DNA of 64,000 nucleotides from NCBI RefSeq assembly GCF_009914755.1, contig NC_060929.1; one strand, written 5' to 3'. Positions 53,700-55,935 of the stretch are shown piece after piece. The stretch is from the human T2T-CHM13v2.0 reference genome, Homo sapiens. The notes beneath the pieces are model-generated. The model was not told the DNA's origin. It worked only from the letters and a program-made list of their open reading frames with translations, and ran no database searches. Position numbers and translations under genes: made by a program. Position 1 is the stretch's first letter. Each line of letters begins with the position of its first letter.

Positions 53700-55870
53700 T
53701 TTTAAAAAATCGATGCATTATGATTATAGAAATTTCCAGGGTATATGTGATATTCTGATACATACATACAAAGGGAAAAAAATCAACAGGTTATTAGGAT
53801 ATCCATCACCTCAAACCTTGATCATTTCTTTGGGTTGAGAACATTCCAAATCTTCTCTTCTAGCTATTTAAAAATGTACAATAAGTTATTGTTAACTATA
53901 GTCGCCCTACTGTGCTATGGAAAACTAGAAGTTATTTCTTCAATCGAACTGTTATTTTCATACCCATGAACCAGATTCTCTTCACCTGCCCTCTTCCCAC
54001 CTTTCCCAGACACTGAAACCACCATTCTCTCTACCTCCATGAGACCAACTTTCTTTAAACTCCTCTCTATCAGTAAGAATATGTGATATATTTTTTTCTT
54101 TTTCTTTTTTTCCCGATGTCAGCCTGGGGAAAGGGAGCACTGATGAAAGATGCAGTTCGCTGAGCCATTCGAGACCTGCTGTCTGAGAAACCTCCTGATG
54201 GGGCCACCTTCCCTAAGCAACAAGCACGCACCCCCTAACAGACCTAAATGAGCGGGGAGCAATGCCCAGAATTCCCAGGCATAGGGTCGTCTGGAGGCCG
54301 GTATGGGGGAGGGGTGTTGGTGCTGGCGGTAAACACCTAGATGAGGGAGGGGGTCTACCCGGCCAACCCTCATCAGCGGCTTCCTTCCTAGACTCTCCCT
54401 GCCACTATGCGGGAAGAAGGGCCCACTCGCCTGGGTCCCAGGCTGGGGCTCCCCCGCGGGAAGAAGACAGGCTCTGGTGACAGACACCTGCCCCCAGGCA
54501 CTGTCGGACCCCAGAACAGTGTCTGGAGCTTTCCAGCTTTATGGAAAGCTTTATGGAAAGCTTTCCTCAGCTTGCCCATCCATAAAAAGGAAGTAACACC
54601 TGGACCTGCCTCCAAAGGCAGAGGCCAGGGTTCCGCAGCTCCAACCACGTGCTCAGCAAACAGCCCCTGGCATTATTTTCAGATTCCCCCATACCCAGTC
54701 TCCTCCAGGGCCCCACTTCGCTTTGGGGCAAGCTCTGAGGCCCAGCTCCTTCCCTGCAGTGTGCCCCCAGGCAAGTCACTTGGCTCTCTGGGCCTCAGTT
54801 TCTCCATCCCCACACCAAGCTCACTGGACTCATGGGTGGATCTGGGGTCTCTGCCGCTCACGCGCCAGGAAGGCAGCGGATTTGGGATCATCCAGCCTTG
54901 ACCCTGCTGCACTACCTGGACCAGTCCCCACTTCCTGACCAGGCCTCATCTGGGGTTCATGCCCTCAATGCTGAGGCTCTCTCTTGGTGGAGTGACCTTG
55001 GGACAACGCTGTCCCCAGCCTCAGTTTCCCCGTAAGAGTCAGCTTGCTTTAAGGGCGTTGCTTCACCTCAGGCCTGCAGGAAAGGCTCCCCTGCCTGCCT
55101 GACAAACCTGGCTGGGGCCTCACCAGCAGGCCCGAGTGTGGCACGATCGGGACCCAGCAGCAGTGGCTGAAGTACCATCTGGGCTGCAGCGTCGCCTGCG
55201 CCATGGCCACTTCCACTTCTTCAGTGCAGCTACCGCCAGCCGTTTCAGAACGTGTTATTTGACTTTCTGTGCCTGGCTTATTTTACTTAACCTAATGTTC
55301 TCCAGTTCCACCTGTGTTGCTGCAAATAACAGGATTTTATCCTTTTTATGGCTGAATAATACTCCATTGTGTGTATATGCCACGTTTTCTTGGTCCATCC
55401 ATCCGTTGATGGACACTGAGGTTGATTTCCTATCTGGGCTATTGCACTCCCAATAAACGTGGGAGTGCAGATATCTGTTTGATACACTGATTTTTTTTCT
55501 TTTGGTTATCTACCCTGCAGTGGGATTGCTGGATCACATGGTAGTTCTATTTTTAATCTTTGGAGGGACCTCCACATTGTTTTCCATAATGATTGTACTA
55601 ATTTACATTCCCACCAACTGTGTATAAGCGTTCCCCTTTCTTCACATCCTTGTTTGTCTTTTTGATAATATCCATTCTAACTGGTGTGAGATGATATCTG
55701 ATTGTGGTTTTGATTTGCACTTCCGTGATGATTAGTGATGTTGAGCATTTTTTTCATATACCTGTTGGCCATTCGTATGTCTTCTTTTGAGAAATGTCTG
55801 TTCAGATCTTTTGTCCCTTCTTTAATTAGATTATTGGTTTGTATGCTGTTGAGTTGTTTCAGTTCCCTGT
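53700..55870 (-). mobile_element. L1MA-type 3' fragment split by a retrocopy (segments 53700-54089 and 55247-55870)
   Basis: 3' UTR sequence ...gtaagaatatgtgatat resumes after the insert as agaacgtgttatttgactttctgtgcctggcttatt; ORF2 peptide [20 protein letters not shown] follows. Confidence 0.9.
54091..55246 (-). pseudogene. RNF126-derived retrocopy: 5' UTR, exon 1 and unspliced intron-like sequence with A-rich tail
   Basis: 55204-55124 translates MAQATLQPRWYFSHCCWVPIVPHSGLL versus recalled RNF126 [25 protein letters not shown] (14/25 identical, several CpG-type changes), then GTGAGG; T-tract at 54091-54111; degenerate TSD. Confidence 0.8.
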
Positions 55871-55935
55871 ATGGCCTTAAATCTTTAAGTTGTTTCAGGG
55901 TCACAAAGGCATATAAAAGGCATTACTGTTTTCTT

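What the first reader, a model, noticed from the sequence alone, without database searches (positions are those of the whole stretch)
54076..55260. Retrocopy of an unspliced RNF126 pre-mRNA (exon 1 plus about 1 kb of intron) inside an L1
Seen: a GC-rich 1.15-kb block interrupts a colinear L1MA 3' UTR. It has an A-rich tail (T-tract 54091-54111) and a degenerate duplication (agaatatgtgatat 54076-54089 / agaacgtgttattt 55247-55260). On the minus strand it reads 42 nt of leader, gccATGG, 27 codons with YFSHCCWVPIVP, then CTG|GTGAGG and non-coding sequence containing MIR-like cores (ggcctcagtttctccatc, about 54790). Known (from recall): RNF126 begins [32 protein letters not shown], and similarity stops where I recall intron 1 to lie; DYICPRC does not follow. 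No AATAAA precedes the tail. Inference: L1 machinery copied a nascent or prematurely terminated transcript, primed at an intronic A-tract or an oligo(A) tail. This is the opposite of a normal processed pseudogene, would be missed by protein-based pipelines, and is a fossil of the ancestral intron.
Basis: partly seen in the sequence, partly recalled or inferred. Interest (0 to 1): 0.85.

Follow-up and report, generated by a model that had tools for sequence, protein, structure and literature searches.

The report
Unspliced RNF126 exon1–intron1 retrocopy
An ancient LINE-1-made DNA copy of a short, unspliced RNF126 transcript (first exon plus the first tenth of its first intron) sits inside an old L1 on chromosome 5; it is a dead but real example of an uncommon kind of pseudogene that ordinary pipelines overlook.

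Summary

- **The insert.** Window 55246→54112 (minus strand, 1,135 nt) is colinear with T2T chr19:617217→616028. That stretch covers the RNF126 leader, exon 1 (its translation is 25 of 25 identical to PDB RNF126), the intact GTGAGG donor, and the first ~1.05 kb of the ~10.15-kb intron 1.
- **Strength of the match.** Identity is 74% in both the exon and intron parts. The intron-only global score is 193.5, against −23±8 for 100 shuffles and at most 2.5 for 10 other windows of the same intron.
- **Retroposition hallmarks.** The insert ends in a 21-nt A-rich tail. It is flanked by a 14–16-bp duplication of the host L1 sequence, shown against 13 uninterrupted L1 copies.
- **Which copy is the source.** CpG decay is one-sided (121 CpG in the parent, 33 in the copy), which marks chr19 as the source.
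- **Contrast copy.** An ordinary, fully spliced RNF126 pseudogene on chr17 gives the contrast.
- **Correction.** The host site is in the last codons of L1 ORF2, not strictly the 3' UTR.
- **Still open.** I found no poly(A) signal and no A-tract at the breakpoint in the parent, so how the 3' end formed is unresolved.

This is a new member of the known class of partly processed or unprocessed retrocopies, of modest interest.

The parts
55247..55260 (.). Target-site duplication, the copy next to the 5' end of the insert (agaacgtgttattt). It may extend 1-2 bp further.
   Evidence: Matches the single-copy motif of uninterrupted L1 copies at 11 of 14 positions. In 14 of 16 fetched L1 copies the right-flank match starts exactly at 55247.
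55205..55246 (-). Leader derived from the RNF126 5' UTR (42 nt). Its first bases align to about chr19:617217.
   Evidence: Alignment. The independent chr17 processed copy reaches chr19:617239, so this 5' end lies within about 22 nt of another transcript-derived 5' end. Placement is uncertain by about 20 nt because the parent leader is a GC-rich repeat.
55124..55204 (-). Copy of the RNF126 exon-1 coding sequence. It has 27 codons, against 25 in the parent, because of a 6-nt insertion.
   Evidence: The exon part (leader plus coding sequence) is 88 of 117 identical.
54112..55123 (-). Copy of the first part of RNF126 intron 1 (1,012 nt). It starts with the unused splice donor GTGAGG.
   Evidence: Colinear with chr19:617081→616028 once an Alu-like block is removed. 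579 of 781 aligned columns are identical. Score 193.5 against shuffles at −23.4±8.3 and against 10 other windows of the same intron with a maximum of 2.5.
54739..54809 (-). Dispersed-repeat core (MIR-like, named from recall) that was already in the intron when it was copied.
   Evidence: 8 other genome loci match at 79-86%. The parent carries the same core at the colinear position, around chr19:616735.
54535..54564 (.). 12-bp tandem duplication (2.5 copies, 100% matches), inside a stretch of about 46 nt that the parent lacks.
   Evidence: TRF; alignment gap.
54091..54111 (-). Remnant of the poly(A) tail (A7-G-A5-G-A7 on the minus strand).
   Evidence: The parent reads on with unrelated sequence at this point.
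54076..54089 (.). Target-site duplication, the copy next to the tail (agaatatgtgatat).
   Evidence: Matches the L1 motif at 12 of 14 positions.
55261..55922 (-). Host L1, C-terminal part of ORF2, decayed and with frameshifts.
   Evidence: phmmer hits to LINE-1 ORF2p structures: residues 1132-1178 at E 2.1e-17 and residues 1181-1237 at E 6e-12. The first look found more than 10,000 candidates in the genome.
53710..54075 (-). Host L1, last codons of ORF2 plus the 3' UTR. The lower boundary is approximate.
   Evidence: 19 left-flank matches lie adjacent to the right-flank matches in other L1 copies. Alignment; sequence.

Best explanation
This is an L1-mediated retrocopy of a short, unspliced, adenylated RNF126 transcript.

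1. **Transcript (start shown, cause of early end inferred).** Transcription began in the RNF126 CpG-island promoter and ran through exon 1 and its unused 5' splice site. The RNA acquired a 3' end roughly 0.9-1.05 kb into the ~10-kb intron 1. The cause is premature termination or cleavage.
2. **Tail (inferred).** The RNA received an A-tail.
3. **Integration (inferred from the hallmarks).** L1 ORF2p acting in trans nicked an older L1 on chromosome 5 after a short T-run (TGTTT/G on the plus strand) and primed on the tail. It reverse-transcribed the RNA to within about 20 nt of its 5' end and integrated the copy, leaving a 14-16-bp target-site duplication.
4. **Decay (shown).** The copy has since decayed neutrally. 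Three quarters of its CpGs are gone, the first zinc-finger cysteine is now serine, and there are many indels.
5. **Function (inferred).** It has none. It preserves a snapshot of the ancestral intron, taken before an Alu-like monomer entered the parent.

Shown here: the homology, its limits, the tail, the duplication, the host L1 and the direction of copying.

Inferred: the RNA species, how it was adenylated, and an age of roughly 50-100 Myr.
For: 1. **The parent is RNF126.** Translation of chr19:617156-617082 is 25 of 25 identical to RNF126 in PDB 2n9o. The window's 35-aa reading finds that exon as the best non-self hit in the genome.
2. **Colinear through the splice donor.** The match runs 1,012 nt into the intron. 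Overall identity is 74.3% (667 of 898), with the intron at 74.1% and the exon part at 75.2%. The global score is 240.75 against −24.0±8.6 for 100 dinucleotide shuffles. The intron part scores 193.5. Ten other windows of the same intron reach at most 2.5, the reverse complement scores −22.75, and two upstream windows score about −33.
3. **No downstream exon.** Exon 2 lies at chr19:~606928, 10.15 kb downstream.
4. **Retroposition hallmarks.** There is a 21-nt A-rich tail exactly where homology ends. A 14-16-bp duplication of host L1 sequence is verified against 13 uninterrupted copies. The 5' end lies within about 22 nt of the 5' end of an independent, fully spliced RNF126 retrocopy on chr17.
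5. **Direction of copying.** The parent has 121 CpG and the copy 33. Parent CG aligns to TG or CA in the copy 48 times, and the reverse occurs 3 times.
6. **Relative dating.**
   - The parent carries a 144-bp block made of an Alu-like monomer plus one copy of its own direct repeat. The block is absent from the copy. It gives a sub-threshold SRP-RNA hit and has more than 2,000 genome candidates.
   - Non-CpG K2P distance between copy and parent is 0.226.
   - The host L1's own branch is 0.130.
Against: - None of the 22 poly(A)-signal hexamers I tested lies in the last 89 nt of the insert. None lies in the 60 nt of the parent around the breakpoint either. Canonical cleavage and polyadenylation is therefore not shown.
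- The nick site TGTTT/G only loosely resembles the L1 endonuclease preference TTTT/AA (motif from recall).
- The two copies of the duplication share only 9 of 14 positions. They are convincing only because each matches the L1 family sequence.
- The 5' mapping is uncertain by about 20 nt in a GC-rich repeat.
- The word-based DNA searches of the genome did not link the two loci. The link rests on the protein hit (E 0.079 alone) followed by direct alignment.
- No other species could be examined, so the age rests on distances and on recalled substitution rates.
Confidence: 0.9

Rival explanations
1. Same retrocopy, but the RNA was a long RNF126 pre-mRNA with no tail of its own. L1 reverse transcriptase primed internally on an A-rich tract encoded in intron 1.
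For: No poly(A) signal is visible before the tail. The parent has AAA at the breakpoint (GCAAAGTGG).
Against: In the first 1.28 kb of the parent intron no 12-mer holds more than 7 A's, and none of the richest windows lies at the breakpoint. Three A's are a weak primer site. An ancestral tract could have decayed, but GC content there is 0.72.
Confidence: 0.12
2. Same retrocopy, but the template was a regular, stable alternative isoform of RNF126 that ends at an intronic poly(A) site (a terminal-exon extension of exon 1), not an aberrant or nascent RNA.
For: The RNA was complete at both ends, with a 5' end near that of the chr17 copy and a tail. That fits an exported, cytoplasmic RNA able to meet L1 ORF2p. 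The 3' end lies about 1 kb from the 5' splice site, where intronic polyadenylation is common (recall).
Against: No signal hexamer appears in either copy. With about 26% divergence a hexamer could have been lost in both, so this is weak evidence. No transcript or poly(A)-site database could be consulted.
Confidence: 0.3
3. DNA-level event: a piece of chr19 DNA was captured at a double-strand break, or the block is part of a segmental duplication.
For: The presence of intron sequence is what one expects of DNA-based duplication.
Against: - Homology starts in the transcribed leader and ends at an untemplated A-rich tail in the sense orientation.
- A 14-16-bp duplication of the target flanks it.
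- L1 sequence resumes immediately on both sides.
- No promoter sequence upstream of about chr19:617217 is included.
Confidence: 0.03
4. Chance resemblance between two GC-rich, repeat-bearing sequences.
For: The protein hit alone is weak (E 0.079), and both loci carry MIR-like cores.
Against: BLASTN gives E 1.4e-45 plus four further colinear HSPs outside the repeat core. Scores are about 25-30 standard deviations above shuffles and far above real controls from the same intron.
Confidence: 0.01

Closest known systems
Semiprocessed (partially processed) retrocopies, e.g. rodent preproinsulin I
   Same: Both are RNA-mediated copies that keep parental intron sequence and carry a poly(A) tail and flanking direct repeats. 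This is the class as described in PMC3449122 (passages read). PMC5470649 (passages read) lists 'partially processed retrogenes'.
   Different: Known examples keep one intron but carry the downstream exons and the gene's normal 3' end. This copy has only exon 1 plus about one tenth of intron 1, and it ends inside the intron with no recognisable poly(A) signal.
Classical processed pseudogene of the same gene (chr17:57919918-57921471, probably the annotated RNF126P1; name from recall, location not checked in print)
   Same: Same parent, the same 5' region (reaching chr19:617239) and the same L1-type origin.
   Different: In the chr17 copy ten exon blocks are joined without introns at 85-96% identity, and similarity to the exon1-intron1 query stops at the end of exon 1 (q1-132). 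The chr5 copy runs on into the intron and is much older (74%).
snoRNA retroposons (snoRTs) of types 2 and 3 (Weber 2006, PMC1687206, passages read)
   Same: They are L1-type retrocopies that include parental intronic sequence, with short A-rich tails often interrupted by G. The author proposes a non-canonical polyadenylation complex for types 1 and 2.
   Different: snoRTs begin at the 5' end of a mature snoRNA. This copy begins in the mRNA leader, and no Rfam family reaches its gathering score in it.
Products of premature cleavage and polyadenylation, or promoter-proximal termination, in first introns (recall; no paper read here)
   Same: The inferred template has that architecture: transcription start region, exon 1, an unused 5' splice site, and a 3' end about 1 kb into intron 1.
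   Different: That is an RNA class, not a genomic element. In my searches I found no paper reporting retrocopies of such RNAs.

Membership tests
L1-mediated retrocopy (target-primed reverse transcription in trans) | 3' poly(A) tail not encoded in the parent | tested here: met
   A 21-nt A-rich tail lies at 54091-54111. The parent continues with GTGCAAAGTGG....
L1-mediated retrocopy (target-primed reverse transcription in trans) | Target-site duplication flanking the insert and its tail | tested here: met
   The duplication is 14-16 bp. Each copy matches the single-copy motif of 13 uninterrupted L1 copies, at 12 of 14 and 11 of 14 positions. Flank matches overlap in 8 of 16 copies.
L1-mediated retrocopy (target-primed reverse transcription in trans) | Homology limited to the transcribed region, in the sense orientation relative to the tail | tested here: met
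   Homology starts at about chr19:617217, within about 22 nt of the 5' end of the chr17 processed copy. No promoter sequence is included.
L1-mediated retrocopy (target-primed reverse transcription in trans) | Nick site resembling TTTT/AA | tested here: inconclusive
   The inferred nick is TGTTT/GTC on the plus strand. It is T-rich on the 5' side, but no A follows. The motif is from recall.
Processed pseudogene in the strict sense | Parental introns removed | tested here: not met
   1,012 nt of intron 1 follow the intact donor. No exon 2 is present.
Semiprocessed retrocopy | Retains parental intron sequence in an RNA-derived copy | tested here: met
Semiprocessed retrocopy | Carries downstream exons and the gene's normal 3' end | tested here: not met
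   The copy ends about 1.05 kb into a 10.15-kb intron.
Segmental or DNA-based duplication | Homology extends beyond the transcript limits, with no tail and no target duplication | tested here: not met
   L1 sequence resumes at 54075 and 55261.
snoRNA retroposon | Starts at the 5' end of a snoRNA | tested here: not met
   The best snoRNA hit is snoZ6 at 23.7 bits, below its gathering score of 35, and it lies on the repeat core. The insert starts in the mRNA leader.
Functional RNF126-like gene | Intact N-terminal zinc-finger reading frame continuing into the rest of the protein | tested here: not met
   The frame reads YFSHCC where the parent reads YFCHCC. The frame then runs into intron sequence, and no further exons exist.

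The most novel reading that the evidence does not exclude
The template was a prematurely terminated promoter-proximal RNF126 transcript carrying a non-canonical tail, the kind of nuclear RNA that is normally destroyed. L1 ORF2p captured it all the same. If so, this locus would be one visible member of a hidden population of exon1-intron1 retrocopies. Splice-junction and protein-based pipelines cannot see them. Such copies would be a fossil record of premature termination sites and of ancestral intron sequence.
Probability: 0.3. Interest if true: 0.55.

Novelty: new member of a known kind. Interest (0 to 1): 0.4.

Why it matters
- **What L1 can copy.** L1 machinery mobilised an unspliced RNA that ended inside the first intron. 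It was not a mature mRNA.
- **Why it would be missed.** The detection criteria I read require intronless or multi-exon spliced structure (bioRxiv 10.1101/2020.06.07.139212 and PMC4772013, passages). A review warns that intron-containing retrocopies may be overlooked (PMC5470649, passage). RefSeq annotates no gene in this window.
- **A dated snapshot of RNF126 intron 1.** The repeat cores were already there. The Alu-like monomer was not. A stretch of about 46 nt survives only in the copy.
- **No function is expected.** The value is as a worked example and as a seed for a genome-wide search.

Tried and rejected
- **Word-based genome DNA searches.**
  - The whole insert found only itself and 8 short repeat-core matches.
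  - The exon part found only itself.
  - The parent as query did not list the chr5 copy among the 40 scored of 2,201 candidates.
  - At 74% identity the link had to be made through the translated exon and direct alignment.
- **First PDB query.** It failed because I gave coordinates of the wrong strand system. One search corrected this.
- **Exon 2 motif.** It was absent from chr19:609001-618999 and turned up after I fetched the next 10 kb.
- **MAFFT global alignment.** It misplaced the 3' end and the leader because of the Alu-like block and a GC-rich indel. An affine-gap alignment replaced it, followed by one with the block removed.
- **Pfam scan of five decayed L1 ORF fragments.** It gave 0 families. 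L1 identity came instead from PDB ORF2p sequences.
- **Rfam on the insert.** There were 5 sub-threshold hits and none reached its gathering score, so this is not a snoRNA or miRNA retroposon.
- **Literature.**
  - Searches gave the general class.
  - ('RNF126' plus 'retrocopy') gave 1 paper, on a plant family and unrelated.
  - One search gave 1 unrelated review.
  - Of the 11 papers listed, none was shown to describe a retrocopy of a prematurely polyadenylated transcript. I judged this from titles and abstract starts, and I read passages of two of them (PMC3996531, PMC1687206).
  - I opened no supplements. Catalogues in supplements (e.g. those of Baertsch 2008, which I did not see) might list this locus.
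- **Host L1 dating.** I built no L1 consensus and dated the host by pairwise distances only.
Full report
**1. The observation**

- Between 54100 and 55199, 200-nt windows have GC 0.52-0.655. The flanks have 0.285-0.43.
- On the minus strand the block reads 42 nt of leader, an ATG at 55204, and 27 codons (MAQATLQPRWYFSHCCWVPIVPHSGLL). GTGAGG follows at 55123, then 1,012 nt with no long frame.
- It ends in A7-G-A5-G-A7 (54111-54091).
- The two 14-mers at 54076-54089 and 55247-55260 are as quoted.
- There is no AATAAA or ATTAAA anywhere in the insert.

**2. The parent**

- A six-frame search of the window's own genome with the 35-residue reading gave 6 matches at E≤10. These were the window itself, then chr19:617064-617156 on the minus strand (61% identity, E 0.079), then four weaker ones at E 1.8-4.4.
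- That hit is weak on its own. Translation of chr19:617156-617082, however, is 25 of 25 identical to residues 3-27 of PDB 2n9o chain A, 'E3 ubiquitin-protein ligase RNF126' (E 2e-14).
- The PDB chain continues with YICPRCESG. That motif is not in chr19:609001-618999. It lies at chr19:~606925, behind a CAG acceptor.
- RNF126 intron 1 is therefore about 10.15 kb long (617081 to 606929).

**3. Colinearity through the splice donor**

- BLASTN of the minus strand of the block against the sense strand of chr19 gave five colinear HSPs. They run from window 55242 to 54118 and from chr19:617192 to 616029. E-values are 1.4e-45, 4.8e-9 and three at 7e-4 (one search gave the same result on the shorter locus).
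- An affine-gap global alignment shows the donor conserved: CTG|GTGAGGCCCC in the copy and CCG|GTGAGGCCCG in the parent. Recognisable blocks continue all the way to the last 44 nt before the tail.
- The one large interruption is a 144-bp block in the parent.
  - It is bounded by a direct repeat, GTCTGCATTT, at 616212 and 616068.
  - It gives a sub-threshold match to metazoan SRP RNA (44.8 bits against a gathering score of 70, E 6.5e-10).
  - It matches other genome loci at 82-91%, with 2,201 first-look candidates of which 40 were scored.
  - It is an Alu-type monomer that entered the parent after the copy was made, or at least was absent from the source allele.
- With the Alu-like block removed:
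  - 1,135 nt of the copy align to 1,046 nt of the parent.
  - 667 of 898 aligned columns are identical (74.3%), with 36 gap runs.
  - The score is 240.75 against −24.0±8.6 (maximum −1.5) for 100 dinucleotide-preserving shuffles.
  - The intron part alone gives 579 of 781 (74.1%) and a score of 193.5 against −23.4±8.3.
- Real-sequence controls give the same answer. Ten other 910-nt windows of the same intron score −50 to 2.5, with a mean of −21.3. The reverse complement of the true segment scores −22.75. Two upstream windows score about −33.
- The similarity is therefore specific, and it is not explained by GC content or by the shared repeat cores.
- The exon part is no better conserved than the intron (88 of 117, 75.2%), as expected for a dead copy.

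**4. Direction of copying**

The parent segment has 121 CpG in 1,046 nt and GC 0.727. The copy has 33 CpG in 1,135 nt and GC 0.601. Parent CG aligns to TG (27) or CA (21) in the copy, and the reverse occurs 3 times. chr19 is a maintained CpG island within a complete gene. chr5 is the methylated, decaying derivative.

**5. Retroposition hallmarks and the host**

- A genome search with the block plus flanks gave 59 matches from 10,210 first-look candidates, 40 of them scored. They were the window itself, 39 matches to the right flank and 19 to the left flank.
- None of the 39 right-flank matches extends left of window 55247. Sixteen of them start exactly there. None of the 19 left-flank matches extends right of 54099.
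- I examined 16 fetched copies.
  - The right flank matched in 16 of 16, starting at 55247 in 14 of them.
  - In 8 of the 16, the left and right flank matches overlap on the subject by 13-35 bp.
  - In 5, the left flank gave no hit at the threshold used.
  - In 2, only a 25-nt T-rich hit appeared.
  - In 1, the left match lay about 630 bp away, and an Alu-like sequence is visible at that site.
- The multiple alignment of 13 uninterrupted copies reads ...AAGTGAGAACATGTGATGTTTGTCTTTCTGTGCC..., with the motif present once. The window has it on both sides of the insert, matching at 12 of 14 and 11 of 14 positions.
- The target-site duplication is therefore real, at 14 bp or up to 16 bp if the following TT is counted.
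- The plus-strand primer end implied by this is ...TGTTT/GTC, T-rich but not the textbook TTTT/AA (motif from recall).
- The minus strand of the right flank encodes LINE-1 ORF2p residues 1132-1178 (E 2.1e-17) and 1181-1237 (E 6e-12) of 1275. Pfam found nothing in these fragments.
- The host is thus an L1 in the same orientation as the insert. It was hit in roughly the last ten codons of ORF2, with its 3' UTR continuing to about 53710.

**6. The 5' end and a natural contrast**

- The insert's first bases (GAAACGGCTGGCGG) align to chr19:617218-617205. A 19-nt indel in the GC-rich leader makes this uncertain by about 20 nt.
- Searching with the parent segment found chr17:57919940-57920071 at 87% identity. 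It covers only query positions 1-132, stopping at the end of exon 1.
- Aligning that locus to the 20-kb gene shows ten exon blocks joined without introns at 85-96% identity. The copy starts at chr19:617239. This is a classical processed pseudogene, probably the annotated RNF126P1. The name occurs in 15 papers (listing only), but I did not verify its location.
- The same gene has thus produced a normal spliced retrocopy and, earlier, the unspliced exon1-intron1 copy studied here. Both start in the same 25-nt stretch of the leader.

**7. The 3' end**

- Homology ends at ...CCAGGCTGAC, a few bases before the tail. The parent continues GTGCAAAGTGGTGATTTAG.
- None of the 22 signal hexamers I tested occurs in the last 89 nt of the copy or in 60 nt of the parent around the breakpoint.
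- No 12-mer in the first 1.28 kb of the parent intron has more than 7 A's, and none of the richest lies at the breakpoint.
- The tail was therefore most likely added to the RNA. Two routes are possible: cleavage and polyadenylation at a weak or since-decayed signal, or a non-canonical adenylation of a prematurely terminated transcript. Weber proposed the non-canonical route for intron-bearing snoRNA retroposons (PMC1687206, passages read).
- Internal priming on an encoded A-tract is not supported by the modern parent, but it cannot be excluded without outgroups.
- At 26% divergence a hexamer could have decayed in both copies, so the absence is weak evidence.

**8. Age (inference)**

- Non-CpG K2P distance between copy and parent is 0.226. 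That is about 0.11 per lineage if the two sides changed equally.
- By a star-tree estimate from 15 other copies, the host L1's own branch is 0.130. The mean window-versus-others distance is 0.219 and the mean among the others is 0.177. L020 was left out of that estimate because it is a 98.4%-identical duplicate of L019.
- With recalled mammalian neutral rates of about 1-2.2e-9 per site per year, this gives roughly 50-100 Myr.
- The order of events is: host L1 insertion, then the RNF126 retrocopy, then the Alu-like monomer in the parent. The chr17 processed copy is much younger.

**9. What it is and how it compares**

- It meets the tested hallmarks of an L1-mediated retrocopy: tail, duplication, transcript-limited homology and a new location.
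- It fails the 'introns removed' criterion of a processed pseudogene.
- It belongs with the semiprocessed or partially processed retrocopies described in PMC3449122 and PMC5470649 (passages read). It differs in having no downstream exon and an intronic 3' end.
- It is not a snoRNA retroposon, because no Rfam family reaches its gathering score.
- It is not a DNA-level duplication.
- Pipelines whose criteria I read would not report it. One requires at least three exons with few intron sequences (bioRxiv 10.1101/2020.06.07.139212). The other looks for duplicates devoid of parental introns (PMC4772013).
- My searches found no paper linking retrocopies to intronic or premature polyadenylation. They found none on an RNF126 retrocopy at this site either. 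I read no supplements, so catalogue tables may still list it.

**10. Verdict**

It is a dead, roughly 50-100-Myr-old fossil. It is a new member of a known if rarely documented kind, with some value as a snapshot of the ancestral intron and as a pointer to a class that standard retrocopy screens miss. Interest is moderate (0.4), not the 0.85 first assigned.

Noticed in passing
L036 (G000:C17:57919918-57921471): A classical, fully spliced processed pseudogene of RNF126. Ten exon blocks are joined without introns at 85-96% identity to chr19, starting at chr19:617239. It is probably the annotated RNF126P1 (name from recall and from the listing; location not verified).
   Followed up: partly
L016 7069-7212 (chr19:616069-616212): A 144-bp block in RNF126 intron 1 made of an Alu-type monomer plus one copy of a direct repeat, antisense to the gene. 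The repeat copies read GTCTGCATTTCTAA and GTCTGCATTTTTAA (13 of 14 identical). The block is absent from the chr5 copy, so it gives a relative date.
   Followed up: partly
window 54535-54590: About 46 nt are present in the retrocopy but missing from the parent intron. They include a MIR-core-like stretch and a perfect 12-bp tandem duplication of 2.5 copies. Either the parent lost this stretch or the copy gained part of it.
   Followed up: partly
L019 (G000:C7:65.015 Mb) and L020 (G000:C7:56.994 Mb): Two L1 copies on chr7 are 98.4% identical over 305 nt and lie in opposite orientation, far closer than any other pair. This suggests a recent inverted segmental duplication on chr7.
   Followed up: no
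window 55020-55040, 54945-54965, 54790-54810, 54565-54590, with colinear sites in chr19:617000-616700: Several MIR-core-like motifs (…GAAACTGAGGC…) recur every 100-250 nt in the copied intron segment and in the parent. There is another just past the breakpoint in the parent (chr19:~615985). I did not resolve whether these are separate insertions or an old internal repeat.
   Followed up: no
window 55049-55282 (minus strand): A 77-codon stop-free frame spans the TSD, leader, exon-1 copy and the start of the intron copy. At this GC content it is expected by chance and has no support as a gene.
   Followed up: no
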